Source of the DNA: Chitinophagales bacterium
GTDB taxonomy: Bacteria > Bacteroidota > Bacteroidia > Chitinophagales > UBA10324
NCBI GenBank assembly: GCA_038326325.1
Contig: JBBQJW010000004.1
Coordinates: forward strand, 57,417-121,416
Direction: 5' to 3'
Length of the DNA: 64,000 nucleotides
Positions 16,873-63,654 of this stretch are shown here, one piece after another (position 1 is the first letter of the stretch; each line of letters opens with the position of its first letter). Both the position numbers and the translations under genes were made by a program. Under the pieces are notes generated by a model that searched no databases, was not told the DNA's origin, and was given only the letters and a program-made list of their open reading frames with translations.

Positions 16873-16975
16873 CCTTTTCTATTTATAAAAACCATTTCAT
16901 CAAAAAATAATATTCATTTCTAAAATCAAATGTATTCATGAAACTAACCTCCCTCAATCGCATGATAGTAGGTAT

Positions 16976-19900: not shown

Positions 19901-20086
19901 TATCCACATGTAGCCTTCCTCATCCTGAACAATGGAAGTGACATAATTATCTGACAATCCGTCTTTCTCAGAATAATTATTGAAGAAAAAAGTTGGCGAC
20001 TGCGCTACAACTGTTACACTGCAAACCGAAATGAAAGCGAGCGTACACAACAATTGAAACAAGCATGCGCCTCCTTTTTTTTTCAT
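16976..20086 (-). CDS. Sensor histidine kinase with periplasmic two-component-regulator beta-propeller/Y_Y_Y domains, HisKA_3 and HATPase_c
   Basis: Repeated W(I/V)GT..GL..(F/Y) propeller motifs, one TM helix (LWFKLFSVLLSVTVVLFIV), an H-box ARDIHDEIGAGL, and a C-terminal ATPase (NALKHSGA, DDGKGF, GNGLRNM). Confidence 0.85.
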   Translation of the reverse strand: MKKKGGACLFQLLCTLAFISVCSVTVVAQSPTFFFNNYSEKDGLSDNYVTSIVQDEEGYMWIGTKNGLNRFDGYEFKNYKKSIDGKDGLNNNYITRLFLDSRKRLWVVTFSGLLLYDKLHDNFISYGQVLSKKNIQATGIVEDVEHNLWISTIGEGIYELKADLKSSANYRPVALAANSNIVNKRNFISNLISDAKGNLWLASFDGLFQFNIATKSFTAYHFNYADLLNQQFNNLFLNLYADPIHENILWCGTWGAGLLQFDLDTKKFVQFKYDYSTPVNLSNIVYQSAPQEKNKLWLCTEKGLMIYDTENKTFITYKNQPSEEHSFIGLSAFCLFNGKDGKIWIGSERGFSIMNPEKQIFSYKEYNELRSIGLFEEDTIKKITYLVSIYDNRRLCTIDNVTGVKKIILLPQADEFKAEPFCLLNYHDSLFIGTTKGLYLFNKQTNKIYLLDVASAFGIDKNHLSVYDMIADDNGIIYLASHNQNYGLFKLNLQTGKKASLETVAGLSPDFSFNSINSFNKDASGNIWMASGNSLCKMNSSTNQFEFFNEAINKKYKLMSGITDFTFDDKKNIWITTEENGLLFLDSAFTLKSFNILNGNRIEFLNSICFDNKNNLWINGVQGLLQFNISNSSFRNFTTADGLPSNKSVSNLELSTDDKISFAYGNRVYSFNPTYNPVRAPDYSLKINSLKIFDKNYEGKYEINFLNEIKLNHNQNFISFDFAAIDFSNSSSIQYAYWLEGYDDDWNNCGSRRYASYTNLYPANYKLHIKAGTEQGEWSKHEKILSVIIEPAIWQTLWFKLFSVLLSVTVVLFIVRYLSTIKLRRQIVQLEKQQAIEKVRAHIARDIHDEIGAGLTKISLMSRQLLKTDTSNKNTVTKINEASGNLIQNLSEIVWTINPENDTLQNLIAYTRHYCGNFFDNTNIQCQLDLPELISVPPELMISPDVKRNYLFILKEACNNALKHSGANKFTLELNLKDEGLLIKISDDGKGFLIADENKFGNGLRNMKKRADEVKGAFELQSSALGTIIKMRLPFS

Positions 20087-21571: not shown

Positions 21572-23227
21572 CTAAAGTTTTATCACTTTTAATGCATGCG
21601 TGTTTTCTCCGCTCAAGCGGAACAAGTAAATTCCGGATGCTAAATCATATACAGAGATGACTGTGTTTTCTGTTGTCAATCCTGTTAAAACAATCCTTCC
21701 AGCCAAATCTGTAAGCTCATAAGTAGACCCATGCGAAGGCGAATTAATTTTTACAGTAATAAAATTATTGGCGGGGTTTGGATAAATTATAAATCCGTTG
21801 TCATTATTAAAATCATTAATGCCATTAGGTGTAACAGTGATGACTATAGTTGCTATTCCATTGCCGCTGCCGGCCGCTATTTGTACAGGACTGTGTTGCT
21901 CCAGACTTGTTCCATCACCGAGTTGTCCCTGCGCATTGTATCCCCATGCCCAAAGAATGCCGTTAGATTTAATTCCAAAACTGTGACTGGCTCCTGAAGC
22001 ATTATTCATCCAATCGGTTTCAGTTCCAACCTGCTGTGGGCTATGCTGATCTGTGGTAGTACCATCGCCTAATTGTCCATAGTTATTATCACCCCACGAC
22101 CAAAGTGTTCCATTTGATTTTACACCCAATGTGTGACGAGCACCCGTTGCACTGCTTATCCAATTAGCAGCTGTTCCTACCTGAACAGGACTGTTGCTTT
22201 GCGTTGTAGTTCCATCGCCCAATTGTCCATAAAAATTATCGCCCCACGACCATAAAGTACCATCGGATTTAATTCCATGACTATTGTATTCACCGGCGGA
22301 AATATTTATCCAGTTTGTTGCTGTTCCAACCTGCACCGGGTTGTGCTGATCGCCTGTATTTCCAACACCTGTTTGTCCGTAGCCACCATATCCCCATCCC
22401 CACAAAGTTCCATCAGATTTAATGGCAAGACTGTGTTGCTTGCCTGCTGCCACACTTACCCAATTGGTTCCGGTTCCTACCTGAACCATGTTATGTTGCT
22501 CGATAGTGGTGCCATCACCTAACTGCCCGTTTGAATTAATTCCGCACGCCCAAAGTGTGCCGTCTGATTTCACGGCAATGGTGTGCGCATATCCGGCTGC
22601 AATACTTTTCCAACTTGTAACGCCGCCGATTTGCACAGGGTTGTGCTGGTCGGTGGTGGTTCCATCGCCTAATTGTCCATTCACATTACTTCCCCAGCCA
22701 TAAAGATTTCCATTTGATTTTATTCCGAAACTGTGTTGATAGCCGGCTGCAATGATTTTCCAATCAGTATTTGTTCCGACTTGTGTGGGAATGTTTTGCG
22801 ATGTGGTGGTTCCATCACCTAATTGTCCGTAACTGTTTTGTCCCCACGACCAGAGACTGCTATCGGATTTGACTCCGATGTTATGTGAAACACCCGAAGT
22901 GATTATTGCCCATGAGCAATCGCCGGAACCGCTTACTGAATAAGTGGTAGTGATTGATGGAGTAGCAGTAACACTTACTCCCGTGGTGGCACTCAATCCT
23001 TCGGATGGGCTCCATGTGTATGTGGTTGTTCCGGCGGCAGTGAGTGTTGTTGAACCTCCAATAATTATTGTGGAAGGATTTGCCGTAATGGTAACTACAC
23101 ATTGAGCGTTTGAATTTACTGAAAGCATCATTGAAGCAATCAGAAACAATGCGATGGAAAAAATATATATCGTGCGACTGATTTTATTCTTTTTGTTTTT
23201 TTGAAATTGGCGAGTCATAGTTTTCAT
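21572..23227 (-). CDS. RCC1-repeat (regulator of chromosome condensation-like) protein with T9SS C-terminal sorting domain
   Basis: About 8 repeats of W(S/G)WG.N..GQLGDGTT......P.QVG, and a C-terminal IIYPNPANNFITVKI...GIYLFRL Por secretion tail. Confidence 0.8.
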   Translation of the reverse strand: MKTMTRQFQKNKKNKISRTIYIFSIALFLIASMMLSVNSNAQCVVTITANPSTIIIGGSTTLTAAGTTTYTWSPSEGLSATTGVSVTATPSITTTYSVSGSGDCSWAIITSGVSHNIGVKSDSSLWSWGQNSYGQLGDGTTTSQNIPTQVGTNTDWKIIAAGYQHSFGIKSNGNLYGWGSNVNGQLGDGTTTDQHNPVQIGGVTSWKSIAAGYAHTIAVKSDGTLWACGINSNGQLGDGTTIEQHNMVQVGTGTNWVSVAAGKQHSLAIKSDGTLWGWGYGGYGQTGVGNTGDQHNPVQVGTATNWINISAGEYNSHGIKSDGTLWSWGDNFYGQLGDGTTTQSNSPVQVGTAANWISSATGARHTLGVKSNGTLWSWGDNNYGQLGDGTTTDQHSPQQVGTETDWMNNASGASHSFGIKSNGILWAWGYNAQGQLGDGTSLEQHSPVQIAAGSGNGIATIVITVTPNGINDFNNDNGFIIYPNPANNFITVKINSPSHGSTYELTDLAGRIVLTGLTTENTVISVYDLASGIYLFRLSGENTHALKVIKL

Positions 23228-23254
23228 GATGGCTATTTTTTGTAATTAATTTTT

Positions 23255-25027
23255 CTAATGTTGAACTAAGAATTTTTGATTGAAAGTTTTTTCATTGGTT
23301 ATTAATTGACAGAAATAAATTCCATCTGATAAGTTTTTAGTTTCAATTTTCAGGTTTGAAGTTTTCAGGAGCGAAGAATAAATTTCTCGTCCTGATACAT
23401 CAAAAATTTTAACTGTTACATTTTCATTTTTGAACTGAGTATTTTTAATAAATAAAAACTCATCTGCCGGATTTGGATAAATAATAAATGAAGTTTTATT
23501 ATTCAATTCATCTATTGAATTGATGCATGATTTAACAAATACAAAAACTGTGTCAGAACTGTTACACTCAGGAGAAATTGAATATAAATAAATTACGGTA
23601 TGTAAACCCAGCCCTGCGATTGAAGGATTAAAAATATTTCCGCTTATGCCTGCACCAATAAATGTTCCGCCTGAAGGTGAGCCAATGAGATTTGAAGATG
23701 TTCCATTCAAACAAACTGAATCAGGTAAACCACTTTGGGTTACAGTGAGATTACATTCAAGGCAAAGTGTTGTAATCATGCCACCGTGGTCAATTACTGT
23801 TGCAGGAACTGTTACAGTTCCGCCTAAAGAAAATACCGGCGATGGGGTTGAAACAGTTGGAACATGTGAAGAAACAACTGGCCACGCATTGCCCTGGCTG
23901 CAACCGCTGTTTCCGAGCGAATCAGTTTTTATTAAATAAATATTGAAGTTGTCAACTGCAAGCAAAACAAATCCGCCATCTGCCGTTTGTTGAACGGAAG
24001 AATGAGAATCACCGCCACCGTAAGTTCTTGTCCAAAGTGTATCGCCGTTTGCATCTGTTCTTATAAGTAAGCTGTGATATGTTCCATTTGGAAAAGCCTG
24101 CGACCATCCCGAAAAAATATAGCCACCGTCTGTGGTTTGCTTGCCACAATTAATATAGACATGATTAACTCCGCTATATGTTTTACTCCATTGCCAGTTT
24201 CCATTGTTGTCAGTTTTTAATGCAGTTCCTTCAACACCGGTGGCACCATAAGCAATTCCGGAAATAATAAATCCAGAGTCTGTTGTTTGTTGTATGTATA
24301 GTCCTCCGTTTATATGAGGTGGCCCTTCGACAATATATGCTTTTGTCCAGAGAGTATCACCTGTTACACTTGTCTTTATTAAATAAATTCCTCCTGTACT
24401 GTAGTTACCGGAAATAACAAAGCCCCCACCGATTGCTTCTGTTACAGCGTATCCATAATCATCACCAGTGCCGCCAAAATTTTTTGTCCAGAGTGTATCA
24501 CCTACTGCATCAGTTTTTATGATTAATACATTGCGAATGCCATTGATATCAACTTTATTTCCTGCTATTATATATCCGCCATCAGTAGTTTGTTTTACTG
24601 AATTTCCCTGCCCGTTCAGATTTCCTCCGTAAGTTTTTGTCCAAAGTGTAACACCCAGCGCATTTGTTTTAATCAAGTAAACTTCATCAGCACCTGTTCC
24701 GAAACTGTTCGAGTATCCAGTAATTATATAGCCGCCGTCGCTTGTCTGTTCAACAGAAAAACCCTCATCATAACTTGTTCCGCCATAAGATTGTGTCCAA
24801 AGCGTATCACCGGTGGCATCAGTCTTTATTAAATACACATCCCGAATTCCGGCGCCGATATTTTCCGCTGTTCCTGATATTATATATCCGCCATCAGTGG
24901 TTTGATGAACGCAGTATCCCTGTGTAATAGCACCACCCGTAAAAGTTTTCTGAAAAGTTACCTGCGCATGTAAAGTGTTAAAGAAGAAAAAACAAAAAGT
25001 GATTTTGAGAACCAGAATTTTTTTCAT
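23255..25027 (-). CDS. T9SS-sorted protein with 7-8 tandem ~50-aa TDGGYII.G / GDTLWTK repeats (propeller-like)
   Basis: The repeats are QTTDGGYIISG...YLIKTDA.GDTLWT.TYGG. The C-terminal tail is IIYPNPADEFLFIKN...GIYFCQL. I prefer the ATG at 25027, because the track start at 25048 is a TTG. Confidence 0.75.
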   Translation of the reverse strand: MKKILVLKITFCFFFFNTLHAQVTFQKTFTGGAITQGYCVHQTTDGGYIISGTAENIGAGIRDVYLIKTDATGDTLWTQSYGGTSYDEGFSVEQTSDGGYIITGYSNSFGTGADEVYLIKTNALGVTLWTKTYGGNLNGQGNSVKQTTDGGYIIAGNKVDINGIRNVLIIKTDAVGDTLWTKNFGGTGDDYGYAVTEAIGGGFVISGNYSTGGIYLIKTSVTGDTLWTKAYIVEGPPHINGGLYIQQTTDSGFIISGIAYGATGVEGTALKTDNNGNWQWSKTYSGVNHVYINCGKQTTDGGYIFSGWSQAFPNGTYHSLLIRTDANGDTLWTRTYGGGDSHSSVQQTADGGFVLLAVDNFNIYLIKTDSLGNSGCSQGNAWPVVSSHVPTVSTPSPVFSLGGTVTVPATVIDHGGMITTLCLECNLTVTQSGLPDSVCLNGTSSNLIGSPSGGTFIGAGISGNIFNPSIAGLGLHTVIYLYSISPECNSSDTVFVFVKSCINSIDELNNKTSFIIYPNPADEFLFIKNTQFKNENVTVKIFDVSGREIYSSLLKTSNLKIETKNLSDGIYFCQLITNEKTFNQKFLVQH

Positions 25028-25122
25028 GACCCTTGAATTATTATTCAAAGGACATATAAAACCTATCTCAGGTCAATCGCATGAAAGTAAGTATTTGAAA
25101 GAGTGAATTGTGATTTTATAAA

Positions 25123-30589: not shown

Positions 30590-32035
30590 TCAATGCTGCA
30601 CTACAACTTTTTTATTCACTGAATTATTTTTTGTGTGCACTTGCAGGAAATAAATTCCAGAAGGAATATCTGAAACATAAATTGTTGATTTTGCTTTGGT
30701 GTTACACTTTACTATTTCACCAAAAATATTGGTAAGAGTGTATTCAAAATTTTCATTACTGTTTGAACGGATAAAAATTTTTTCGTTTGCAGGGTTGGGA
30801 TAAATATTTATTGTTGATGATTCACTCAAAATATTTGTTATTCCTAAGTTTATATCATTTAAGTATCTGTTTACAAAAAAATTATAATCTTCATAAGAAC
30901 CCGCTGCTATTATTTTACCATCAGGCTGTAATGCAAGAGAAGTTACGGCTGCACCACAATTTTGACAAACCCCAGGGTAAGTAAACACCTTTCCTCCTAA
31001 TCCGAAGGAGCCATCAAGTGTACCATTTGAATTATATCTCGCCAACACCACATAATTATCTATACCCGTCTGCCCACCAACAATAATTTTTCCATCTGTC
31101 TGAATAACTAATGATAATCCTCCGGATGCATTATTAAAAGAAATTGTCATATCAGTAATTACTTTTCCTTGTCCTCCAAAAGTATTGTCCATTGTTCCAT
31201 TTGAATTTAGTCTTGCTAAACCAAATCCAGTAAACATGCCATTGTCAGCATTTCCGCAAACAACAATTTTGTCATCTGTCTGACAAGCAAGAGAATAGGA
31301 ATCGCAGTTAATAAAATCAACTGAATCTATTCCATTTATTCCAAAAGTGCTATCAATTAACCCGACTGAAGAATACCTTACAAGCTTAAAGTTATCGGAA
31401 GTATAAACTATTTTACCAGTTGATTGAATTGCAATCGAAGCTGGTCCGGTACCTCCTTCAAGATAATCAATATTAAACCCACCATTTCCAAAATTTGTAT
31501 CCAAATCGCCACTTGAATCAACTCTTGCAATAGCGAAACGACGATCTGTAATTAAACTGTATTTACCACCCATTACTATTTTACCATCTTGTTGAATTGC
31601 TATTGAAGTACAATATTCGTTTGCTCCTATATCAATTATTGTCTTTCCATTTATGCCAAATGTGGAGTCAAGAGTCCCATTTATATTATAGCGTTCAATT
31701 CCAAAATCACTGCCGTATTTACCACCCATTACTATTTTCCCATCATTTTGTACTGCAATTGAATATCCAATAATCTCTGAATTTGCAATTCCACCCAATC
31801 CGAATGTATTGTCGGTTATTCCATAGCTATCAAATCGTTGCAAAAAGGATCCTGCTCCTACAACAATTTTCCCATCTGATTGAACTGCAACAGAAGCAAA
31901 ACTCGTATTGCCATTTGCAAAGCCAAGAACAATTCCATCAAAATCAAAAGTGCTATCAATTGTTCCTGCTTGTCCGAAAGATAATTCTTGATAAAAAAGA
32001 TTTAGAGTAATTAGAATTAAAAATATTTTTTTCAT
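30590..32035 (-). CDS. Delta-60 repeat protein with T9SS C-terminal sorting domain
   Basis: About 8 repeats of D.TFG.(N)G......IA(I/V)Q.DGKIV.GG, and a C-terminal NIYPNPANEKIFIRS...GIYFLQV tail. Confidence 0.75.
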   Translation of the reverse strand: MKKIFLILITLNLFYQELSFGQAGTIDSTFDFDGIVLGFANGNTSFASVAVQSDGKIVVGAGSFLQRFDSYGITDNTFGLGGIANSEIIGYSIAVQNDGKIVMGGKYGSDFGIERYNINGTLDSTFGINGKTIIDIGANEYCTSIAIQQDGKIVMGGKYSLITDRRFAIARVDSSGDLDTNFGNGGFNIDYLEGGTGPASIAIQSTGKIVYTSDNFKLVRYSSVGLIDSTFGINGIDSVDFINCDSYSLACQTDDKIVVCGNADNGMFTGFGLARLNSNGTMDNTFGGQGKVITDMTISFNNASGGLSLVIQTDGKIIVGGQTGIDNYVVLARYNSNGTLDGSFGLGGKVFTYPGVCQNCGAAVTSLALQPDGKIIAAGSYEDYNFFVNRYLNDINLGITNILSESSTINIYPNPANEKIFIRSNSNENFEYTLTNIFGEIVKCNTKAKSTIYVSDIPSGIYFLQVHTKNNSVNKKVVVQH

Positions 32036-39560: not shown

Positions 39561-40316
39561 ATGACAACAACTTTTATTACGGGCGCAACATCGGGATTCG
39601 GAGAAGCAATTGCAAAACGATTCGCCTCTGAAGGTCATCGTATAATTATTTGCGGAAGACGAAAAGAAAAATTAACCGCACTCAAAAATTTCATTACCGC
39701 TGAATTCAAAACTGAAGTCGCGACTTTGTGTTTCGACATCCAGAAGAAATCAGAAGTAAAAGACGCTGTAACATCTTTATCCGACGATTGGAAAAACATT
39801 GATGTGTTGGTGAACAACGCCGGCAACGCGCATGGTTTCGATTCAATTGAAGACGGTTCGCTCGATGATTGGGACGCGATGATTGACACCAACCTGAAGG
39901 GATTATTGTATGTAACAAAAGCGGTGCTGCCATTGATGAAGCAAAGTGGCAACCCATATATTTTCAATATTGGTTCCACCGCCGGAAAATATGTTTACGA
40001 AAAAGGAAATGTTTATTGTGCCACCAAATTTGCTGTCGACGCGCTTTCGCAAGCGATGCGAATTGATTTACTGAAAAAGAAAATTCGTGTAACAGTCATT
40101 CATCCCGGCGCCGCCGAAACCGAATTTTCATTGGTGCGATTGAAAGGCGACACGGAGAAAGCGAAAAGCGTTTACAAAGGTTTCACTCCGTTGTCGGCGA
40201 ATGACATCGCCGATGTCATCAGTTACTGTTACAGTACGCCCGTTCATGTGAACATCAACGAAATGGTGATCGTGCCGACCGCGCAGGCGAATCCCTTTTA
40301 CATCAACCGCGAATGA
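39561..40316 (+). CDS. SDR family NAD(P)-dependent oxidoreductase (YdfG-like)
   Basis: TGATSGFG cofactor motif, NNAG, and catalytic YCATKFA. Confidence 0.9.
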   Translation: MTTTFITGATSGFGEAIAKRFASEGHRIIICGRRKEKLTALKNFITAEFKTEVATLCFDIQKKSEVKDAVTSLSDDWKNIDVLVNNAGNAHGFDSIEDGSLDDWDAMIDTNLKGLLYVTKAVLPLMKQSGNPYIFNIGSTAGKYVYEKGNVYCATKFAVDALSQAMRIDLLKKKIRVTVIHPGAAETEFSLVRLKGDTEKAKSVYKGFTPLSANDIADVISYCYSTPVHVNINEMVIVPTAQANPFYINRE

Positions 40317-41431
40317 AAAAAATATTCGTCTTCATTCTTTGTTTGTGTTTCGTAGCTGAAAAAATTTCCGCGCAGTCGTTAGTGTTACAGACACTCGGTT
40401 CGCTTCAACCTTATTGCAATGAATCTTCCGGGCTCGAGCAAACCGATTCAACAACTGTTTGGTCGCACAATGACAGTGGAGGAAAACCTACGCTTTACCA
40501 TTTTTCCCTAACCGGACAATTACTCGATTCTGTTACAGTTGGTAACGCGACGAATGTTGATTGGGAAGATCTCGCCAATGACCACAATGGAACACTATTC
40601 ATCGGTGATTTCGGAAATAATAACTGCGACCGAACTAACCTGAGAATCTATCGCGTGTCAACTTACGCGATGCTTTCAGGGGCGGATACCATTTACGCCG
40701 ATACCATTTCTTTTTCTTATCCTGATCAAATCGCGTTTCCTCCATCAGGAGCGAATCTGAATTTCGATTGCGAAGCGATGATTTATTCAGGCGATTCGCT
40801 TTATCTGTTTTCAAAAAACATTTCAACTTCAAACAGCACGGGATTCACGAAATGTTATCGCCTTCCCTCATCACCCGGAAATTATGTCGCTGAATTGATT
40901 GATAGTTTTCATACTGGAACATACATCACATCCGCTGATATTACTGTAGATGATTCATCGCTCGTGTTACTCGCGTACACTTCCGTTTTTATTTTCCGCG
41001 GGTTTCAGAATCACGATTTTTTTTCCGTTACACCGCAGGTCTCGACCTTTTCCGGCGTGACTCAAAAGGAAGGTGTTCATTGGAAGGACGAGCGACATTT
41101 ATTCATCAGCGACGAACGATTTTTCGGAACGGGCGGAAATTTATATGTCACCGATGTAACATCAGAAATTGAAGCGTCTAAAGGATTAAAAAAAAACTTC
41201 GGGGTCTTTCCCAATCCATCAAACGATCAATTGTCAATCACTTCTATAAGCGTTACCAGCGAAAAATTATCCGCAAGCGTCTTCGACACATTCGGAAGAG
41301 AAATCTTCACCACAACTAATCTAAAATTCCCTTTTCAATTGAATACACATCAGTGGCTGGAGGGAATTTATTTCATCCGTATTACTTCTCCCTCTGTGAA
41401 AGAAGAAATTCCGTTTTTAATTCTTCATTAA
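40313..41431 (+). CDS. Hypothetical secreted protein with T9SS C-terminal sorting domain
   Basis: Signal peptide and a C-terminal FGVFPNPSNDQLSI...GIYFIRI tail. Its start overlaps the SDR stop (ATGA). Confidence 0.65.
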   Translation: MKKIFVFILCLCFVAEKISAQSLVLQTLGSLQPYCNESSGLEQTDSTTVWSHNDSGGKPTLYHFSLTGQLLDSVTVGNATNVDWEDLANDHNGTLFIGDFGNNNCDRTNLRIYRVSTYAMLSGADTIYADTISFSYPDQIAFPPSGANLNFDCEAMIYSGDSLYLFSKNISTSNSTGFTKCYRLPSSPGNYVAELIDSFHTGTYITSADITVDDSSLVLLAYTSVFIFRGFQNHDFFSVTPQVSTFSGVTQKEGVHWKDERHLFISDERFFGTGGNLYVTDVTSEIEASKGLKKNFGVFPNPSNDQLSITSISVTSEKLSASVFDTFGREIFTTTNLKFPFQLNTHQWLEGIYFIRITSPSVKEEIPFLILH

Positions 41432-55176: not shown

Positions 55177-55332
55177 GGCGCTAAAATAATTTTTTATAGG
55201 GAATATCTGATATTCAAATCCTCTTCGAGAGAAGTGAAGGGATAAAAAAATTATATGGGGGTTTGTTTTTTTGAAAAAATCATCGCGCTTCCCTTTAGAC
55301 TTGCTACATGATTTTTTTATTGAGTTAGCGGT

Positions 55333-55398
55333 GTCATTCTAAGTTTATCGAAGAAACAACAAAAGAGATTTCCGTTGCAATCGATAACCCGAAGCAAC
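55333..55398. repeat. REP-like hairpin modules related to 44482-44557
   Basis: GTCATTCTAAGTTTATCGAAGAA (compare GTCATGCTGAGCTTGTCGAAGCA) and CGTTGCAATCGATAACCCGAAGCAAC (GTTGC/GCAAC stem). Confidence 0.5.
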
Positions 55399-55465
55399 AC
55401 TATTTCCTTTGCGTATTTTCATTTTAATATTGTAGACCTCTTGCATAAATCAAGGGAGTTCAAAA

Positions 55466-55666
55466 TTATAAATGCCTACAATGAGATTTGCGCGCAGCTT
55501 CGCTGATGCCATAATCTCCACTGAAATGGAACATCTTTCGATACTCCCGAAGATACATCAGTGTCATTAGTAGCTGGTCTTCTATATACAGTTTAGGTGG
55601 TCTTCGTCGGAGGGATGTTTGCGCATATCTTGATGATGAGCTTTTACAGCTTTGACCATCTCGCAA
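55466..55666 (-). pseudogene. N-terminal stub of an IS5-like/DDE_Tnp_4-type transposase (HTH region only)
   Basis: RRRPPKLYIEDQLLMTLMYLREYRKMFHFSGDYGISEAA matches the HTH_Tnp_4 N-terminus of DDE_Tnp_4-type transposases as I remember them. No DDE domain follows. Confidence 0.6.
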
Positions 55667-55904
55667 ATGTTTTTCGCTTTATTGCTGTCCTGCGTTTAAA
55701 CAGTTCAGGTTTTATTTCTTTGAGTTACTTCCCAATACATACCGCAACTTTATTGCTGTTACACTTCTCTTTCAAATTTTGTTTTCCTTTATCTTTCAAC
55801 CATTTGTATGCTTATTTATGCAAAAGGTCTATTGCAGTTGCAATTACTCTTGCCGCTGGGTCTTTACTTTTTTATTTTAAAAAGAGTGGAATTACTAATT
55901 AACT

Positions 55905-56128
55905 AAATTTTTTTCTCAGTACACCGCGGCTTGCATCCGGGTAGTACGAAATATTTCAACATACAGTCCGCCTTGTGCAATCAATAACCTAAATTACAGT
56001 TGAGACCGTCATTTCCTTTTGTAAACCCATCTACGCTACAAGAATCTTGCAAATGCCTTGCTCTTCGTCAGCAACTGCACATGCATTTCCAAACCAATAA
56101 CCGCTTCGTATTTATCCTAGTGACTCAT
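55905..56128 (-). pseudogene. gatB: 5' fragment of gatB (aspartyl/glutamyl-tRNA amidotransferase subunit B) with in-frame stop and decay
   Basis: The reverse frame reads MSH*DKYEAVIGLEMHVQLLTKSKAFARFL*. The DKYEAVIGLE.HVQLLTKSK.F string is the conserved GatB N-terminus. There is a TAG at codon 4 (56119..56117) and a second stop at 56038..56036. The frame is lost further downstream, with only faint LPG...EKK similarity. Confidence 0.55.
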
Positions 56129-56139
56129 TAATATTTATT

Positions 56140-56664
56140 TTATTTTTTCTTACCACCAATTTTAAAACCAATTGGTTTTCTTGGTTTTGGTTTTTCAATT
56201 TGAGGTTTTGAAGTAAGGTATTCAATTATCTCGTTAATGTTTTCAATCTTCTTATTGAATTTAGATTCGAGTTCGTCAATTCTCTTATTCAGCAATGCAA
56301 AATCATTATTGTATTGCTTTAGGAGAATGAAAGCGCGAACAATAGAAATATTTACATTGATTGCAGTGTCGCTGCGCAGTGCACTTGAGAGCATTGTAAT
56401 GCCATGTTCAGTAAATGCGTAAGGTAATTTTTGTGTGCCTCCACGCTTTTCCGTTTTTGATGTCACAATTTGTGACATCAAAACTTTGAACTCTTCGGGA
56501 TTGAGTTGAAACATAAAACCAAATGGGAATCGCTTAATATTTCTTTTAACCGCCTGAACAAGCACTCTTGTCTGTACTCCATACATTTCTGCCAAATGAA
56601 AATCAAGCATAACTTTCTGTCCACGAATAATAAAAATCTTCTTTTGAATAATTACAAGTTCCAT
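56140..56664 (-). CDS. ORF6N domain-containing (KilA-N-related) DNA-binding protein
   Basis: IRGQKVMLDFHLAEMYGVQTRVLVQAVKRNIKRFPFGFMFQL and LPYAFTEHGITMLSSALRSDTAINVNISIVRAF are hallmark ORF6N motifs. Confidence 0.8.
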   Translation of the reverse strand: MELVIIQKKIFIIRGQKVMLDFHLAEMYGVQTRVLVQAVKRNIKRFPFGFMFQLNPEEFKVLMSQIVTSKTEKRGGTQKLPYAFTEHGITMLSSALRSDTAINVNISIVRAFILLKQYNNDFALLNKRIDELESKFNKKIENINEIIEYLTSKPQIEKPKPRKPIGFKIGGKKK

Positions 56665-59456: not shown

Positions 59457-60428
59457 ATGAAAAAAATCAAGTATTACTATAATCCGAAAAGTCTTCGATA
59501 CGAAAAATATGTAGAGAGCGCCTGGAAAAAATTTCGTGTGGTGCTCGGCTTTCTTTCTGCAGCAAGTGTGTTTGCATTCATTATTGTATATCTCGCTTAC
59601 ACTTATCTCGATTCACCGAAAGAGAAAAAACTCAAACGCGAATTATCGCAATTGCAATATCAATATGATTTGATGAACGATAAAGTTGGTGAGATGAATG
59701 ATGCGCTCGCTGATTTGCAAGACCGCGACGACAATATATATAGGGTGATTTTTGAAGCAGAGCCGATTCCTGCAAGTGTGCGTGAAGCAGGTTACGGTGG
59801 CGCAAATCGTTTTGAAGAGTTGAATGGTTATGAAGATGCTGACTTAATGAAAAGCAGTTGGCTGAAGTTGACTCAGACCCGTTACAAGATGTACATACAA
59901 TCTAAATCATATGATGCTCTTGCTGCTTTAATAAAAAGTAAAACAGAAATGCTTGCATCTATTCCTGCTATACAACCTGTCGCGAATAAAGATTTAAAAA
60001 AAATTGGTTCTGGTTTTGGTGTACGCATTGATCCGATTTATAAAGTGCCGCGCATGCACGAAGGAATTGATTTCACCGCGGCGATTGGTACTCCGATTTA
60101 CGCGACAGGAAATGGTGTAGTGAGTTTAGTTGATTATGGAAGTCGTGATTACGGCAATCATGTAATCATCACGCATGGTTTCGGTTATCAGACTTTGTAT
60201 GGTCACATGAGCAGGGTGAAAGTTCGCATCGGACAAAAAGTAAATCGTGGCGATGTGATTGGTTATGTAGGCAACAGTGGTAAATCCACCGGGCCGCATT
60301 GCCATTACGAAGTAATTAAGAACGGAAGAAAAATAAATCCGATTAATTTTTTCTATAGTGATTTATCTCCGGAAGAATTTCAGCAGATGTTAGAGTTGGC
60401 AGAACGCAACGGTCAATCGCTCGATTGA
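59457..60428 (+). CDS. M23 family metallopeptidase (membrane-anchored, coiled-coil N-terminus)
   Basis: HEGIDF, GNHVII.HG and GPHCHYEV LytM-type zinc ligand motifs, plus an N-terminal TM helix. Confidence 0.85.
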   Translation: MKKIKYYYNPKSLRYEKYVESAWKKFRVVLGFLSAASVFAFIIVYLAYTYLDSPKEKKLKRELSQLQYQYDLMNDKVGEMNDALADLQDRDDNIYRVIFEAEPIPASVREAGYGGANRFEELNGYEDADLMKSSWLKLTQTRYKMYIQSKSYDALAALIKSKTEMLASIPAIQPVANKDLKKIGSGFGVRIDPIYKVPRMHEGIDFTAAIGTPIYATGNGVVSLVDYGSRDYGNHVIITHGFGYQTLYGHMSRVKVRIGQKVNRGDVIGYVGNSGKSTGPHCHYEVIKNGRKINPINFFYSDLSPEEFQQMLELAERNGQSLD

Positions 60429-60494
60429 TTTTAATTTCTTCTTGCTGAATATTTTTTGATTCGTGAATCATTAATTGATCTCTTGTTGATTCAG

Positions 60495-60771
60495 AAAATA
60501 TTTTGAAAAATTATTTTTAAATAATTTTTATTCGGGAAATATTTTTATGATTTCAATTTTAAAATCTTTGTGGTGGAAAATATTTTTCGATTTCGATTGA
60601 AATTTATTTTCCGTTTTTGAAATATCATTTCATTTCAATTTTCGTGAGAAATAATTTTTATGGTTTTAATATTTCAGAATTTTTGAATCAACTCAGAAAA
60701 TATTCAGAGTGAATAATTTTCAATTTCTCATTGGGGAAATGGTTATTTTGAATAAACTCAAAAAAATATTT
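60495..60771. repeat. Left array: about 7 degenerate AAAATATTTT(T)CRAT-type AT-rich repeats
   Basis: Cores at 60495-60504, 60537-60546, 60577-60587, 60619-60630 (degenerate), 60648-60659 (degenerate), 60697-60704 and 60763-60771, spaced about 30-65 bp apart. Confidence 0.55.
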
Positions 60772-60794
60772 CATGACTTCACTAAAAAACTAAA

Positions 60795-60811
60795 GGGCAC
60801 CGCTGGTGCCC
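60795..60811 (-). terminator. Intrinsic terminator for the tiny Lys/Ala-rich ORF
   Basis: GGGCACC-gct-GGTGCCC stem with AAA/TTT flanks, 28 nt downstream (minus strand) of the stop at 60839. Confidence 0.65.
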
Positions 60812-60838
60812 TTTGAGTTCTTCAAGAAAAAAGAAAAT

Positions 60839-60913
60839 CTATTTCTTTTTCTTAGCCGCTTTTTTCGCCTTCTTAGCAGGTTTCTTAGCAGCTTTTTTTG
60901 CTTTTGTAGCCAT
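60839..60913 (-). CDS. 24-codon Lys/Ala-rich ORF (histone H1-tail-like peptide)
   Basis: ATG GCT ACA AAA GCA AAA AAA GCT GCT AAG AAA CCT GCT AAG AAG GCG AAA AAA GCG GCT AAG AAA AAG AAA TAG translates to MATKAKKAAKKPAKKAKKAAKKKK. It is below the track cutoff and has its own terminator hairpin. Confidence 0.4.
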   Translation of the reverse strand: MATKAKKAAKKPAKKAKKAAKKKK

Positions 60914-60980
60914 AGTTAAAAAATTTTGGTATCACAAGTCTAACAAAACATTATGAAGTCGCTCGCATTTTATCGCTTCT

Positions 60981-61003
60981 TTATTCACAACAGTTTGTGA
61001 ATA
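60981..61003. promoter_or_regulatory. Inverted pair of DnaA-box-like 9-mers
   Basis: TTATTCACA (fits TTATNCACA 9/9) and, on the other strand, cTATTCACA (8/9). They are arranged as TATTCACAA-cagt-TTGTGAATA. Confidence 0.35.
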
Positions 61004-61041
61004 GCAGATGATGAATTGAAATCAATCGCGAATGTTGCATT

Positions 61042-61388
61042 GAAATATTTTTTTTCGCAATCATTTTTTACGACTGAAATTTTTCAAGGTTGATTAAATG
61101 GATTCATTAATATTATTTTTTATAAAAATTATTACTCTCCTGAAACACGCTGTGGCAGCATGTTTCATGGAATAAGTAATTTATTATTTTTTGAATCGAA
61201 AATTGAAAAACAAAAATTGAAATGATGAGAAATGAAAAATATTTTTTCTATTGATGAAGAAAAATGAAATTTGAAATGTGTTCACTAATCAGAACAAAAA
61301 AATTTATTTAATGATTGAAAAATATTTTTTAAGAAATTTTATTTTATGAAAAAAGAAAATCATGATCTGATTATTGAAAATATTTTTT
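61042..61388. repeat. Right array: 4 copies of ATTGAAAAATATTTTTT in inverted orientation relative to the left array
   Basis: Cores at 61042-61055, 61235-61247, 61318-61330 and 61377-61388, each preceded by (A)TTGA. Confidence 0.55.
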
Positions 61389-61459
61389 GTTGAAACACAT
61401 TTTTTTCATTGAGAAAAAAGATAAATCAGCAAAATTTAAAATGTTGAATGAGCTAAAAA

Positions 61460-62086
61460 TTAATCTTCCAAAACTTTTTCGAGCATGTATGACTCCATAA
61501 TTTGCTGAGGAGAAACACACAATTCTGTCAATGGAATTTTTCCATGATACAATTCCTGCAACTTGTTTTTCAGAGTGTCATTTGATAAATCAAATGTTTT
61601 TAAAGTTTTTGTTTCAGCCAATTGAAGCCCTGTAGTATAGAAGTAAATTTTATAAACGAGTTCTGAAGAATACATTTTAGAATCGTCCCAACTGAATTGC
61701 TCGTCGTAATTTTTCCCGATTTGCATTGAAGCAATTTTTTTCATCTTCGATAAAATTCCTTTTGATAAAATATTGCCCGCGGTCTTTAATCGTAAAATCA
61801 AAAAATGTTTGTCTTCTCCCTTTTTTATCCAATTTGTCAATGGAGTTTGTGTAACGCTATCAAACACTTCATACACAAATAAATTCCCTGTACTATCGGA
61901 TAACACAACTCCGCAATTATTAAATTTTGATTTTGTAATTGATTGCAGTGTCTTGTTCTGCGCAGAAGAAATATTCTGGAAAACAATGTCGCCATCTTTT
62001 ACGACTGATAAATCCGGTGAACAATTAAAAACTAAAATTGAAAAAGTAAAAATTATAAAAACCTGAATACAGACACGAACAACCAC
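61460..62086 (-). CDS. YiiX-like permuted papain-fold (C92 family) protein, possibly catalytically altered
   Basis: The GDIVFQ, VYEV, TPL..W, YD..F and K.YSSELVYKIY blocks follow the YiiX/YaeF pattern. Apparent GTG start with a signal/lipobox-like N-terminus (LVFNCS). Confidence 0.6.
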   Translation of the reverse strand: MVVRVCIQVFIIFTFSILVFNCSPDLSVVKDGDIVFQNISSAQNKTLQSITKSKFNNCGVVLSDSTGNLFVYEVFDSVTQTPLTNWIKKGEDKHFLILRLKTAGNILSKGILSKMKKIASMQIGKNYDEQFSWDDSKMYSSELVYKIYFYTTGLQLAETKTLKTFDLSNDTLKNKLQELYHGKIPLTELCVSPQQIMESYMLEKVLED

Positions 62087-62096
62087 TGAAAAATAG

Positions 62097-62516
62097 TTAA
62101 GCAGCTTTATAATAAATAATCATCGTGCGTGAATCATCAATCTGTTGAAGTACCAATTCATCAGTTGTGATTTTGATGATTTTCATTTTGTAAGATGTCT
62201 TGGTTGTTTTATCAGTAATGGTAATTGTTGTTCCGGCTTCATCAATTGTCCATGTGCCCGGAATAAAACCATCGGGTGCTAAACCTTGCTGCACGGAATG
62301 GTCAGTATTAAAAACCAAACGATATTCTTTTTGTGCTTCATCAGCAACTTGTGTTTTTGTTCCGTCTTCAATTTTTACCAGGCCCCAGCTTTTGCAAAGT
62401 CGTGCAGATGTTACATCTGTTGTTCCCTGTGCTTGCGATGAAAACGAAATCATCAGAAATAAAATACAAACACTTGCAGCAAGTGAATGAAAAAAAAATT
62501 TGGTGGTGCTTTTCAT
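62097..62516 (-). CDS. Secreted lipocalin-like domain protein (about 139 aa)
   Basis: There is a signal peptide from the ATG at 62516 (MKSTTKFFFHSLAASVCILFLMISFSSQAQG). GTWTIDEAGTTITIT....Y.I..IT.DELVL is a Lipocalin_4-like pattern. The longer track ORF (TTG at 62705) would overlap hppD. Confidence 0.45.
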   Translation of the reverse strand: MKSTTKFFFHSLAASVCILFLMISFSSQAQGTTDVTSARLCKSWGLVKIEDGTKTQVADEAQKEYRLVFNTDHSVQQGLAPDGFIPGTWTIDEAGTTITITDKTTKTSYKMKIIKITTDELVLQQIDDSRTMIIYYKAA

Positions 62517-62529
62517 TTGTATGTGTTGA

Positions 62530-63654
62530 TTATAAATTACCTCTGAGTTCCTGTTCGCGTTCGATAGATTCGAACAGTGCTTTAAAATTTCCTTTACCAA
62601 AAGATTGCGCGCCTTTGCGTTGAATGATTTCAAAAAATAAAGTGGGTCGGTCTTCCACCGGTTTTGTAAACAACTGTAACAGATATCCTTCATCGTCGCG
62701 GTCAACTAATATTTTTAATTTGCGAAGTATGTTCATGTCTTCGTCAATCACGCCAACTCTTTTTTGCAAATCATCATAATATGAATCGGGCACATCAAGA
62801 AAATCAATTCCTCGTCGTCTTAACTCTGTAACAGTTTCAATGATGTTATCTGTGGCCATTGCGATGTGTTGCACGCCTTGCGAATGATAAAATTCAAGAT
62901 ACTCTTCGATCTGCGATTTCTTTTTTCCTTCAGCAGGTTCGTTGATTGGAAATTTCACATACCCATTTCCGTTGCTCATCACTTTACTCATGAGCGCCGA
63001 ATATTCAGTGCTGATATCTTTATCGTCGAACGATAAAATATTTCTGAAGCCCATCACCTTTTCATAAAACTCAACCCAGGTATTCATTTCGCCCCAGCCA
63101 ACATTTCCAACACAGTGGTCAACATGTTTTAGCCCGACAGGAATTGTTTCGAAGGTTGATCTCCATTCTCTGAATCCGGGAAGAAAAATTCCGTTGTAAT
63201 TTTTTCGCTCTACAAAAACATGAACAGTATCACCATATAATTCTATACCAGCCATGCGCACTTCACCGTTATCATCTTTCAAAGTTTTCGGTTGCATGTA
63301 TGGCTTTGCTCCGCGCTTCGTAGTTTCTTCAAAAGATTTGTAAGCATCATCAACCCACAACGCAAGCACCTTCACCCCATCGCCATGTTTTTCTATGTGC
63401 TGCGAGATTTCATTTCCGGGGTGTAACGGTGTGGTAAGTACCAATGTGATTTTATTCTGACGCAATACATAACTCGCACGGTCGCGCACCCCTGTTTCTG
63501 GCCCCGCATAAGCAAGTGGTTGAAATCCAAAAGCAGTGCGATAGAAATAAGACGACTGCTTCGCGTTGCCGACATAAAATTCAATGTGGTCGGTTCCGTT
63601 GAGCGGAAGAAAATCTTTTTCCGTTGAGGTAGTTGGTTTGGTTAGCGTTTCCAT
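62530..63654 (-). CDS. hppD: 4-hydroxyphenylpyruvate dioxygenase
   Basis: Two VOC-fold modules with iron ligand contexts (HVDHCVGNV, GVQHIA, FFEIIQRKG) and a C-terminal FGKGNFKALFESIE. Confidence 0.9.
   Translation of the reverse strand: METLTKPTTSTEKDFLPLNGTDHIEFYVGNAKQSSYFYRTAFGFQPLAYAGPETGVRDRASYVLRQNKITLVLTTPLHPGNEISQHIEKHGDGVKVLALWVDDAYKSFEETTKRGAKPYMQPKTLKDDNGEVRMAGIELYGDTVHVFVERKNYNGIFLPGFREWRSTFETIPVGLKHVDHCVGNVGWGEMNTWVEFYEKVMGFRNILSFDDKDISTEYSALMSKVMSNGNGYVKFPINEPAEGKKKSQIEEYLEFYHSQGVQHIAMATDNIIETVTELRRRGIDFLDVPDSYYDDLQKRVGVIDEDMNILRKLKILVDRDDEGYLLQLFTKPVEDRPTLFFEIIQRKGAQSFGKGNFKALFESIEREQELRGNL

What the first reader, a model, noticed from the sequence alone, without database searches (positions are those of the whole stretch)
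60429..61459. 1-kb AT-rich non-coding region with two inverted arrays of AAAATATTTT-type repeats around a DnaA-box-like palindrome
This is the longest non-coding stretch in the window. The left half carries about 7 degenerate copies of (G)GAAAATATTTTTCGAT-like units. Several of them sit inside a longer ~45-bp degenerate unit (GGAAAATATTTTT-c/a-GATTTC-r-ATT...). The right half carries 4 clean copies of ATTGAAAAATATTTTTT, which is the reverse complement of the left unit, so the two arrays face each other. Between them lie a terminator, a 24-codon Lys/Ala ORF and TATTCACAA-cagt-TTGTGAATA. One arm of that palindrome is a perfect TTATNCACA DnaA-box match and the other matches 8 of 9. Phased A/T tracts imply intrinsically bent, easily melted DNA. 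Candidate roles are a replication origin or other iteron-type element, a nucleoid-organising site, or a complex regulatory region. The DnaA-box evidence is thin, because I found only this one pair.
Basis: partly seen in the sequence, partly recalled or inferred. Interest (0 to 1): 0.65.

Follow-up and report, generated by a model that had tools for sequence, protein, structure and literature searches.

The report
Tiny lysine-rich gene, AT-rich control region
The 1-kb AT-rich gap is most likely not a replication origin: it holds an unannotated, extremely conserved 24-codon Lys/Ala gene, its promoter, a conserved pair of DnaA-box-like sites and two more fixed-distance elements, all set in fast-evolving AT-rich filler DNA.

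Summary
The gap 60429-61459 is real. It is the longest and most AT-rich gap in the window (24% GC), and AAAATATTTT is over-represented there (5 exact copies against 0.12 expected).

Three details of the observation fail:
- The core word is its own reverse complement, so "arrays facing each other" is not demonstrable.
- There is no 10.5-bp phasing of A/T tracts.
- The 45-bp unit is barely above background.

Comparison with about 10 related uncultured Bacteroidota loci shows a conserved cassette:
- an intrinsic terminator;
- a 24-aa Lys/Ala ORF on the minus strand, whose 75 nt are identical in six lineages with heavily diverged or saturated synonymous sites in neighbouring genes;
- a Bacteroidota-type -7 box;
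- the palindrome, which is two 9-mers TTATNCACA that vary only at N, always 72-74 nt from the ATG;
- a covarying hairpin;
- an invariant 18-nt box.

The spacers between these elements have fixed length but free sequence. The left "array" is not conserved, and one relative has only 83 nt there.

For an origin I found one box by the Ori-Finder rule, no DnaA-trios, no gene-strand switch and no supporting skew. A 53%-GC relative keeps the cassette without any AT-rich unwinding element.

Best reading: a micro-gene with a complex, possibly DnaA-responsive, control region. The origin reading gets about 7%.

The parts
60429..60791 (.). Left AT-rich spacer between two convergent 3' ends (M23 gene, micro-gene). 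It holds AAAATATTTT-like words at 60495, 60508, 60536, 60577 and 60763. The only conserved island is TTTCTCATTGG at 60724-60734.
   Evidence: GC is 21%. Identity to the closest relatives is 55-61% with many indels, close to the 53% I obtained for shuffled right-half sequence. Spacer length varies: 480, 596 and 467 nt, and only 83 nt in L003. Alignment A4 shows the one island.
60792..60814 (-). Intrinsic terminator of the micro-gene (10-bp GC-rich stem followed by a T run).
   Evidence: Found by the terminator scan. The stem is kept in relatives, with loop changes and a compensated G/C insertion in L003. L081 and L089 have terminators of their own behind their ORFs.
60839..60913 (-). Micro-ORF encoding MATKAKKAAKKPAKKAKKAAKKKK (24 aa, Lys/Ala-rich). 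It is not annotated in any library searched.
   Evidence: The same ORF is present in L001, L002, L086, L094, L098-100 and L101. Variants of 23, 29 and 31 aa with in-frame differences occur in L003, L089 and L081. The 75 nt are 100% identical in six lineages. There is no hit in Pfam or NCBIfam. A metatranscriptome contig covers 60783-60912.
60914..60942 (-). Invariant 5' leader (CAAAATTTTTTAACT before the ATG) and candidate Bacteroidota -7 promoter box TAGACTTG (60935-60942).
   Evidence: The leader is invariant in all sequences. The -7 box reads TAGACTTG, TAGAATTG, TAACATTG or TAATATTG at the same place in all lineages, 7 of 8 matches to TAnnTTTG. The promoter consensus is from my own knowledge. 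The transcription start is not mapped.
60981..61004 (.). IR1: two inverted DnaA-box-like 9-mers, TTATTCACA-N6-TGTGAATAG.
   Evidence: It starts 72-74 nt from the start of the leader search pattern GCCATAGTT… in every sequence. The arms vary only at the N of TTATNCACA (T, A or G), and the change is not compensated in the other arm. The 6-nt spacer is free. It is the only such site in the 1.45 Mb scanned.
61042..61051 (.). A-tract/T-tract junction (GAAATATTTT). It is one of the repeat copies and is kept at this position within the close clade.
   Evidence: Alignment A3 shows AAATATTTT, AAAAATTTT or a T run at the same column in five sequences.
61137..61171 (.). IR2: hairpin or inverted repeat CTGAAAC-N15-GTTTCAG with outer pairs that vary between lineages.
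   Evidence: It lies at offset 231 from the leader pattern in six lineages, 209 in L003 and 242 in L081. 78.8% of cells pair, against 30-46% when the 3' partner is slid. Five pairs show changes on both sides. Covariation score is 0.239, reached by 5 of 500 shuffles.
61259..61336 (.). Conserved island around the invariant box TGTTCACTAATCAG(A/C)ACA (61279-61296), followed by A and T runs that include the repeat copy at 61319.
   Evidence: The box is identical in the window, L001, L002, L003, L086, L094 and L101, at offset 370 (349 in L003). Independent metagenome contigs match only 60774-61037 and 61259-61336, separated by 234 or 236 unlike letters of exactly the skipped length.
61005..61459 (.). 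Right AT-rich upstream region as a whole: fixed length, mostly free sequence. It holds repeat copies at 61042, 61236, 61319 and 61377.
   Evidence: The distance from the leader pattern to the C92 stop is 549-552 nt in four lineages, although identity is only 60-68% against 53% for shuffles. There is no conserved ORF. There is no consensus RNA structure beyond the three local inverted repeats.

Best explanation
The region is an intergenic control region built around an unannotated micro-gene. It is not an origin.

SHOWN
- A 24-codon Lys/Ala ORF on the minus strand, with an invariant A/T-rich leader and its own intrinsic terminator, is conserved across uncultured Bacteroidota with genomic GC from about 33% to 53%.
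- Upstream of it, at fixed distances, lie two inverted 9-mers that each fit the DnaA-box consensus TTATNCACA, a covarying hairpin, and an invariant 18-nt box.
- The DNA between these elements keeps its length but not its sequence.
- The left third of the gap keeps neither length nor sequence.

INFERRED MECHANISM
- A Bacteroidota housekeeping-sigma promoter (-7 box TAGACTTG, about 24 nt before the ATG) makes a short, probably abundant, mRNA for a basic peptide resembling a histone H1 tail.
- A DNA-binding protein occupies the 9-mer pair at roughly -50 to -75 and tunes that promoter. DnaA is the best candidate, because variation is confined to the degenerate position of its box.
- The hairpin and the 18-nt box are further protein sites or structures that must stay in register with the promoter. 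That would explain why the spacers have a fixed length.
- The AAAATATTTT words are mostly a lineage-specific product of AT-biased drift, slippage and small duplications in spacer DNA that is free in sequence. A few A-tract/T-tract junctions are held at fixed positions, perhaps as bends or sites for nucleoid proteins.
For: - Conservation of the cassette and its distances.
- The core of 164 nt is 97-100% identical while 4-fold sites of the flanking M23 and HPPD genes are 33-79% identical.
- The arms of IR1 vary only at N, uncompensated, and the 6-nt spacer is free.
- Covariation in IR2.
- Independent metagenomes match only the core and the box island, with unlike filler of equal length between them.
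- The right-half length is 549-552 nt.
- The left half is at near-random identity and is only 83 nt in L003.
- The motif is enriched only in the close clade and is absent from L089 and L081.
- A metatranscriptome contig lies over the ORF and terminator.
- Each homologue has its own terminator.
Against: - No transcription start, no translation and no protein binding has been measured.
- The RNA evidence is one short contig of depth 3.2. Contigs carry no strand information and could derive from contaminating DNA.
- The -33 promoter element is not recognisable.
- The persistence of about 1 kb of non-coding DNA in a compact genome, and the over-representation of AAAATATTTT even against an order-3 Markov model, hint at a function that depends on composition. 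Drift alone does not explain this.
- The frozen synonymous sites of the ORF are not explained by a simple peptide gene.
- Conserved islands separated by variable spacers of fixed length is also the classic pattern of enterobacterial oriC (from my own knowledge).
Confidence: 0.55

Rival explanations
1. The region is the chromosomal replication origin (oriC) of this lineage. DnaA would bind the box pair, the AT-rich flanks would act as the unwinding element, and the other conserved islands would be accessory protein sites. The micro-gene would be embedded in the origin.
For: - Two conserved DnaA-box-like 9-mers are present.
- This is the most AT-rich and longest non-coding stretch in the window.
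- Conserved islands are separated by variable spacers of fixed length.
- In Bacteroidetes the predicted oriC commonly lies far from dnaA, so the absence of dnaA in the window is no argument against an origin (PMC4755523).
Against: - Only one box passes the Ori-Finder rule (TTATCCACA, up to 1 mismatch). The whole window has 13 such boxes against 18.7 expected, with no cluster.
- No run of DnaA-trio triplets lies beside either box.
- Nine consecutive genes to the right are on the minus strand, like those to the left, so there is no orientation switch.
- GC4 skew of minus-strand genes is -0.04 on the left and +0.13 on the right, the opposite of an origin. This test is underpowered.
- The boxes keep a fixed distance to the micro-gene's ATG, which points to promoter control.
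- L081 keeps the ORF, IR1 and IR2, but its region has 43-55% GC and no AT-rich element.
- The left AT-rich half is only 83 nt in L003.
Confidence: 0.07
2. The AT-rich DNA has a function that depends on composition rather than sequence. It could be a binding platform for nucleoid-associated proteins, possibly including the Lys/Ala peptide itself. It could also be a transcriptional insulator or curved region between convergent and tandem transcription units. The AAAATATTTT words would be preferred sites with narrow minor grooves.
For: - About 1 kb of non-coding DNA persists in lineages whose synonymous sites in neighbouring genes are heavily diverged or saturated, although its sequence is free.
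- The motif excess survives order-2 and order-3 Markov controls.
- A-tract/T-tract junctions are held at positions +133 and about +400.
Against: - There is no helical phasing of A/T tracts.
- The motif is absent from L089 and L081, which keep the cassette.
- The left spacer shrinks to 83 nt in L003.
- The AT-richness tracks genomic GC.
Confidence: 0.15
3. The right half encodes an RNA. It could be a long 5' leader of the micro-gene starting near the 18-nt box, a 3'-UTR-derived small RNA of the C92/lipocalin/HPPD operon, or a divergent non-coding RNA. IR2 would be an RNA hairpin and the box a single-stranded seed.
For: - The IR2 stem covaries and includes G-U pairs on the plus strand.
- The box is invariant although its own potential stem is broken in several lineages (GAACA to GCACA), as expected for a single-stranded recognition sequence.
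- The C92 gene has no canonical terminator directly behind it.
Against: - There is no Rfam match.
- The consensus fold finds only the three local inverted repeats, and the covariation term is unfavourable at +0.96.
- Folding z-scores are weak, -2.2 and -1.1.
- No RNA run holds the right half, though this is not proof of absence.
- IR2 lacks a consistent U tract on either strand (my reading of the sequences).
Confidence: 0.15
4. The region is an iteron-type origin or the relic of a mobile element or decayed gene.
For: A short AT-rich word is repeated. An ORF6N-domain gene lies 4 kb away.
Against: - There is no Rep, integrase or transposase gene nearby.
- The repeats are self-complementary, irregularly spaced and not conserved.
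- There is no similarity to 72,556 plasmids or 50,697 phage records.
- tblastn of 322 neighbouring ORFs from relatives gives nothing significant.
Confidence: 0.03

Closest known systems
Bacterial oriC (DnaA-box cluster plus AT-rich unwinding element plus DnaA-trios)
   Same: AT-rich non-coding DNA. 9-mers that fit TTATNCACA. Conserved islands separated by spacers of fixed length and free sequence.
   Different: Only two boxes, in inverted orientation and tied to a promoter. No trios. No gene-strand or skew switch. A GC-rich relative keeps the cassette without an AT-rich element.
DnaA-controlled promoters and DnaA-box clusters outside oriC (dnaA autoregulation, nrdAB, B. subtilis sda and DnaA-box clusters; from my own knowledge)
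   Same: A small number of consensus DnaA boxes at a conserved position just upstream of a promoter.
   Different: The target is an unannotated 24-codon ORF. DnaA binding is untested. Another regulator with a similar half-site cannot be excluded.
Lys/Ala-rich histone-H1-like bacterial nucleoid proteins (Chlamydia Hc1/Hc2, Pseudomonas AlgP, Burkholderia H1-like protein)
   Same: Composition, and (A/P/S)KK-type repeats. The 31-aa homologue gives weak sub-threshold hits to HC2 and the Burkholderia H1-like model.
   Different: Only 23-31 aa with no structured domain. Below every family threshold. Absent from the protein collection.
bS22, the 30-aa basic ribosomal protein of Bacteroidota (PMC7797042)
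   Same: A tiny, very basic protein that was easily overlooked (the F. johnsoniae gene was annotated as hypothetical). Probably highly expressed.
   Different: The paper describes bS22 as rich in arginine and lysine, forming an alpha helix, and highly conserved in sequence. This peptide is a low-complexity Lys/Ala sequence, variable between lineages, with no NCBIfam hit.
Leader-peptide attenuators (hisL, thrL type)
   Same: A tiny ORF with extreme codon bias, directly followed by an intrinsic terminator.
   Different: No downstream gene on the same strand, because the next gene is convergent. No alternative anti-terminator pairing in the fold.
Iteron-type plasmid origins
   Same: A repeated short AT-rich word.
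   Different: No Rep gene. The repeats are palindromic, irregularly spaced and not conserved. No plasmid similarity.

Membership tests
Chromosomal origin oriC | Cluster of several DnaA boxes (Ori-Finder rule: TTATCCACA with up to 1 mismatch) | tested here: not met
   One box in the region (60981). The window has 13 against 18.7 expected, with no cluster. With TTATNCACA and up to 1 mismatch, only the pair is conserved.
Chromosomal origin oriC | AT-rich unwinding element next to a DnaA box, conserved among relatives | tested here: inconclusive
   The window and close relatives are 12-25% GC around the boxes. L081 keeps the boxes in DNA of 43-55% GC with no AT-rich element. The left AT-rich half is 83 nt in L003.
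Chromosomal origin oriC | DnaA-trios (3'-[G/A]A[T/A]-5' repeats) within about 16 bp of a box (PMC8287927) | tested here: not met
   No run of 3 or more such triplets on either strand within 45 nt of either box.
Chromosomal origin oriC | Switch of gene orientation and of GC skew at the site | tested here: not met
   Genes on both sides are on the minus strand, nine in a row to the right. The GC4 skew trend is opposite to the expectation, with low power. A whole-replicon skew analysis was not possible.
Chromosomal origin oriC | Replication starts here (marker frequency, autonomous replication) | not testable with these tools
   Only contig-level depth is available.
Iteron-type origin | Directly repeated iterons at regular spacing beside a rep gene | tested here: not met
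   The core word is self-complementary. Spacings are 13, 28, 41 and 186 nt on the left and 194, 83 and 58 nt on the right. There is no rep gene and no plasmid match.
DnaA-responsive promoter | Consensus DnaA box or boxes at a conserved position relative to a promoter | tested here: met
   TTATNCACA-N6-TGTGNATAR starts 72-74 nt from the start of the leader search pattern in all sequences. Variation is only at N.
DnaA-responsive promoter | DnaA binds the site and changes transcription | not testable with these tools
   Needs EMSA or footprinting and reporter assays.
Protein-coding small ORF | Reading frame, start context and composition kept while nucleotides change; own promoter and terminator | tested here: met
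   Variants of 23, 24, 29 and 31 aa with in-frame indels, an invariant leader and ATGGCTAC start, and a terminator behind each.
Protein-coding small ORF | Transcribed and translated | tested here: inconclusive
   One metatranscriptome contig covers 60783-60912 at depth 3.2, with no strand information. There are no proteomic data.
Structured non-coding RNA (Rfam families) | Match to a covariance model, or a consensus structure with covariation across the element | tested here: not met
   No Rfam hit at gathering score, and only chance-level hits at E-value up to 10. The consensus fold finds only local inverted repeats.

The most novel reading that the evidence does not exclude
A family of 23-31-aa Lys/Ala peptides resembling histone tails, missed by gene callers, is widespread in environmental Bacteroidota. 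It is expressed from a promoter governed by a conserved inverted pair of DnaA boxes. The replication initiator would then directly set the level of a tiny nucleic-acid-binding peptide, coupling replication to the nucleoid. The transcript would also carry an RNA-level function, which would explain why all 75 coding nucleotides are frozen across lineages whose neighbouring genes have heavily diverged or saturated synonymous sites.
Probability: 0.2. Interest if true: 0.65.

Novelty: new member of a known kind. Interest (0 to 1): 0.4.

Why it matters
The finding was flagged as a possible origin of replication in a phylum where no origin has, to my knowledge, been mapped experimentally. That reading is unlikely, so the locus should not be used as an oriC marker.

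The comparison does show three things:
- Gene callers skip a strongly conserved micro-gene. Its exact sequence is absent from a collection of 15 billion proteins.
- The micro-gene has an unusually elaborate upstream region with fixed geometry.
- DnaA-box-like sites can be conserved over large distances outside any recognisable origin.

If DnaA does bind here, this would be a clean, testable case of initiator-controlled transcription in Bacteroidota. The peptide would be a candidate new nucleoid or ribosome-associated factor.

Tried and rejected
- **Rfam.** Gathering and E-value modes gave no family.
- **Plasmid and phage similarity.** None found.
- **Decayed gene.** tblastn of 322 ORFs that lie beside the M23 gene in relatives gave nothing significant. 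There is no conserved ORF in the right half.
- **Bent DNA.** No 10.5-bp periodicity.
- **Oriented or facing arrays.** Not supported.
- **IR1 as an RNA or DNA hairpin.** Rejected. The changes at N and at the loop-closing pair are not compensated.
- **IR1 as a CRP/FNR-type site.** Rejected. The half-sites are everted (TCACA-N6-TGTGA rather than TGTGA-N6-TCACA). This is my reading of the sequence against a consensus I know.
- **The 18-nt box or IR2 as parS, dif or a sigma-54 promoter.** Only superficial resemblance. The centre and the key positions do not fit (my own knowledge).
- **Perfect Bacteroidota -7 boxes (TAnnTTTG) inside the repeats.** None. All copies lack the final G.
- **Leader-peptide attenuator for alaS.** Rejected. 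A convergent gene intervenes and there is no alternative pairing.
- **Antisense hydrophobic ORF as the real gene.** Rejected. It has no conserved start, it is not membrane-like in L081, and the terminator polarity fits the minus strand.
- **Homology search with the peptide.** Not possible. The minimum query is 40 aa, and the exact sequences are not in the collection.
- **RNA runs for the right half.** None listed.
- **Literature on mapped oriC in Bacteroidota.** I found only the statement that the predicted oriC is usually far from dnaA.
Full report
**1. What is there**

The stretch 60429-61459 lies between the stop codon of an M23 peptidase gene (59457-60428, plus strand) and the stop codon of a C92 peptidase gene (61460-62086, minus strand). 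alaS lies further left. A lipocalin-like gene and a 4-hydroxyphenylpyruvate-dioxygenase-like gene (HPPD) lie further right.

It is the longest gap in the window and has the lowest GC, 24.3% against 38.1%. Pfam annotation of the rest of the window shows ordinary housekeeping and cell-envelope genes: mfd, carB, der, lpxC-fabZ, lpxD and several type-9-secretion cargo proteins. There is no dnaA, dnaN or partition gene.

The closest relatives are uncultured, mostly freshwater, Bacteroidota genomes labelled Chitinophagaceae or Chitinophagales.

**2. The repeats**

AAAATATTTT occurs 5 times exactly in the gap, against 0.12 expected from dinucleotide shuffles. With up to one mismatch it occurs 10 times against 2.7 expected. 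No other gap of the window reaches half that density. The excess survives Markov models of order 2 and 3 trained on the region itself. So the repeated word is real.

- The word is its own reverse complement. The flanks of left and right copies are no more alike in inverted orientation (0.35) than in direct orientation (0.28). The repeat finder pairs them as direct repeats.
- A local alignment of the two halves scores 46 inverted and 39 direct, against 32.5 +/- 4.3 for shuffles with a maximum of 47.
- There is no excess power at the helical period for AA/TT, AAAA or TTTT.
- The "45-bp unit" is three units in a 41-nt register that are 51-59% identical, mainly through the word itself. Tandem Repeats Finder does not report it.

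**3. The centre is a gene**

On the minus strand, 60839-60913 encodes MATKAKKAAKKPAKKAKKAAKKKK. An intrinsic terminator follows at 60792-60814.

A metagenome scan with the 20-nt leader, plus look-ups through neighbouring proteins, gave the same ORF in L001, L002, L086, L094, L098-100 and L101. It gave shorter or longer versions in three more distant contigs:
- L003: 23 aa.
- L089: 29 aa.
- L081: 31 aa, from a genome of 53% GC, with Ser and Thr replacing part of the Ala.

In all of them the start context ...CAAAATTTTTTAACTATGGCTAC is kept, the frame stays open, indels are in frame, and each ORF has its own terminator.

The antisense frame is also open. It has no conserved start and is not membrane-like in L081. 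The terminator's T run is on the minus strand.

No Pfam or NCBIfam model reaches threshold. The exact sequences are absent from the 15-billion-protein collection. The peptide is too short for the homology search.

One metatranscriptome contig covers 60783-60912 at 99% identity. This is weak evidence of transcription.

**4. Calibration of conservation**

Between the window and its closest relatives, the 4-fold degenerate sites are 33-64% identical in the M23 gene and 43-79% identical in the HPPD gene. Synonymous sites are therefore saturated or nearly so.

Against that background:
- The 164 nt from the terminator to the -7 box are 97-100% identical in six lineages.
- The 75 coding nucleotides are identical in all six.
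- The left part of the gap is 55-61% identical with many indels, near the 53% I obtained for shuffled right-half sequence. Its length varies (480, 596, 467 nt) and it is only 83 nt in L003.
- The right part is 60-68% identical, but its length is 549-552 nt in four lineages.

Contigs from four unrelated metagenomes match the window only over 60774-61037 and 61259-61336. Between these blocks lie 234 or 236 unlike letters, exactly as many as are skipped.

**5. The conserved elements upstream of the gene**

a) *Candidate -7 promoter box.* It reads TAGACTTG, TAGAATTG, TAACATTG or TAATATTG, about 24 nt before the ATG. That is 7 of 8 matches to the Bacteroidota consensus TAnnTTTG, which I take from my own knowledge.

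The left arm reads TTATTCACA, TTATACACA or TTATGCACA. The right arm reads CTATTCACA or TTATTCACA when reverse-complemented; L003 is the weakest, at 7 of 9. The six bases between the arms vary freely. Variation falls on the N of TTATNCACA and is not compensated in the other arm. Each arm is therefore constrained as a 9-mer on its own, not as half of a hairpin. This is the pattern expected of two DnaA boxes.

c) *IR2 (61137-61171).* It is CTGAAAC-N15-GTTTCAG with outer pairs that differ between lineages. It sits at offset 231 in six lineages, 209 in L003 and 242 in L081. 78.8% of cells pair, against 30-46% with slid partners. Five pairs change on both sides. The covariation score is reached by 5 of 500 shuffles. 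L089 carries a different palindrome, TTCGAATT-N8-AATTCGAA, at about the same place.

d) *An invariant box, TGTTCACTAATCAG(A/C)ACA (61279-61296).* It is at offset 370 (349 in L003), always 139-140 nt from IR2. Its own potential stem is broken in several lineages, so it is read as sequence rather than structure.

Some copies of the A/T word sit at conserved columns, at +133 and just after the box.

There is no consensus RNA structure beyond these three local inverted repeats. The covariation term is +0.96 and the folding z-scores are -2.2 and -1.1. There is no conserved ORF, no Rfam match, and no RNA run that holds the right half.

**6. Is it an origin?**

Points in favour:
- It has two DnaA-box-like 9-mers.
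- It is the most AT-rich DNA in the window.
- It shows conserved islands separated by spacers of fixed length.
- In Bacteroidetes the predicted oriC is usually far from dnaA (PMC4755523).

Points against:
- Only one box passes the Ori-Finder rule. The window has fewer such boxes than chance would give, 13 against 18.7.
- No DnaA-trio run lies beside either box (rule from PMC8287927).
- Nine genes to the right are all on the minus strand, like the ten to the left.
- GC skew at 4-fold sites of minus-strand genes is -0.04 +/- 0.03 on the left and +0.13 +/- 0.06 on the right. An origin predicts the opposite sign. The test is underpowered.
- The boxes are tied to the ATG of the micro-gene.
- L081 keeps the ORF, leader, -7 box, IR1 and IR2 in DNA of 43-55% GC, with no AT-rich element.
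- L003 has almost no left half.
- Relatives whose M23 protein is 70% identical or less lack the whole block at this position.

I put the origin reading at about 7%.

An iteron origin or mobile relic is less likely still. There is no rep, integrase or transposase gene and no plasmid or phage similarity.

**7. Best reading**

The region is a micro-gene cassette with a complex upstream control region.

The promoter and the short transcript are inferred from sequence and conservation. So is the binding of a regulator at IR1, with DnaA as the best candidate. The fixed geometry of IR1, IR2 and the box is shown, but its purpose is not known. Protein sites that must stay in register with the promoter are the simplest explanation.

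Most AAAATATTTT copies lie in DNA that is free in sequence. They are enriched only within the close clade: 0 copies in L089 and L081, and few in the left halves of L001 and L086. I therefore read them mainly as a product of AT-biased drift, slippage and small duplications. A minority may be held in place as A-tract/T-tract junctions.

**8. What remains unexplained**

- Why all synonymous sites of the ORF are frozen.
- Why about 1 kb of non-coding DNA persists in a compact genome.
- What reads the 18-nt box.
- Whether IR2 acts as RNA or as DNA.

**9. Verdict**

The origin interpretation is not supported, and the "complex regulatory region" alternative is supported.

The repeats themselves are of low interest. 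The overlooked micro-gene, with its DnaA-box-like operator and fixed-geometry upstream region, is of moderate interest.

Noticed in passing
window 60839-60913 and the 164-nt core 60781-60944: All 75 coding nucleotides of the micro-ORF, and nearly all of its transcript, are identical in six lineages whose neighbouring genes have 33-79% identity at 4-fold sites. Synonymous positions are frozen. This hints at an extra RNA-level or codon-level constraint.
   Followed up: partly
L083, L084, L087, L088, L090-L092 (metagenome contigs): The 20-nt leader plus start, CAAAATTTTTTAACTATGGC, also precedes an unrelated gene beginning MALRLGDTAPNFKAQT in other metagenome contigs. I read this as peroxiredoxin-like. 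The leader may be a generic strong translation-start context without a Shine-Dalgarno sequence.
   Followed up: no
L081 2786-2799 and 3004-3017 (native coordinates): The GC-rich relative has its own exact 14-nt repeat, GAAGCGACGCATGC, twice and 218 nt apart, plus partial copies, in the region upstream of its micro-ORF. The copies lie roughly where the window has A/T word copies. This may be a lineage-specific equivalent.
   Followed up: no
L089 4276-4299 (native coordinates): L089 lacks the CTGAAAC hairpin. It has a different near-perfect palindrome, TTCGAATT-N8-AATTCGAA, at about the same distance from the micro-ORF.
   Followed up: no
L001 about 10975-11105: An insertion of about 130 nt with two short hairpins lies directly after the M23 stop. 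It is absent from the window and L002, and may be a small mobile insert.
   Followed up: no
L101/L102 4412-5580: This relative has no called C92 peptidase gene. The gap between the lipocalin-like gene and the M23 gene is 1170 nt, yet IR1, IR2 and the box keep exactly the same offsets.
   Followed up: no
window 55177-56664: An ORF6N-domain (KilA-N-like) gene lies at 56140-56664 beside alaS. It is preceded by about 960 nt containing only a 101-aa ORF. This may be a small accessory or phage-related insert.
   Followed up: no
window 62097-62705 versus 62530-63654: The mechanical 202-aa ORF overlaps the HPPD-like gene. The called gene in the matching Logan contig starts later (139 aa, 62097-62516).
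   Followed up: yes
window 21572-25048, 30590-32035, 40313-41431: Several proteins carry the type-9-secretion C-terminal sorting domain. One of them has RCC1 repeats. A hybrid two-component sensor and a LuxR-type response regulator lie at 16243-20086.
   Followed up: no
window 60813-60956 (+): The strand opposite the micro-ORF has an open 47-codon frame that would encode a Phe/Leu/Ala-rich peptide. This is an automatic consequence of Lys/Ala codons. It has no conserved start codon.
   Followed up: yes
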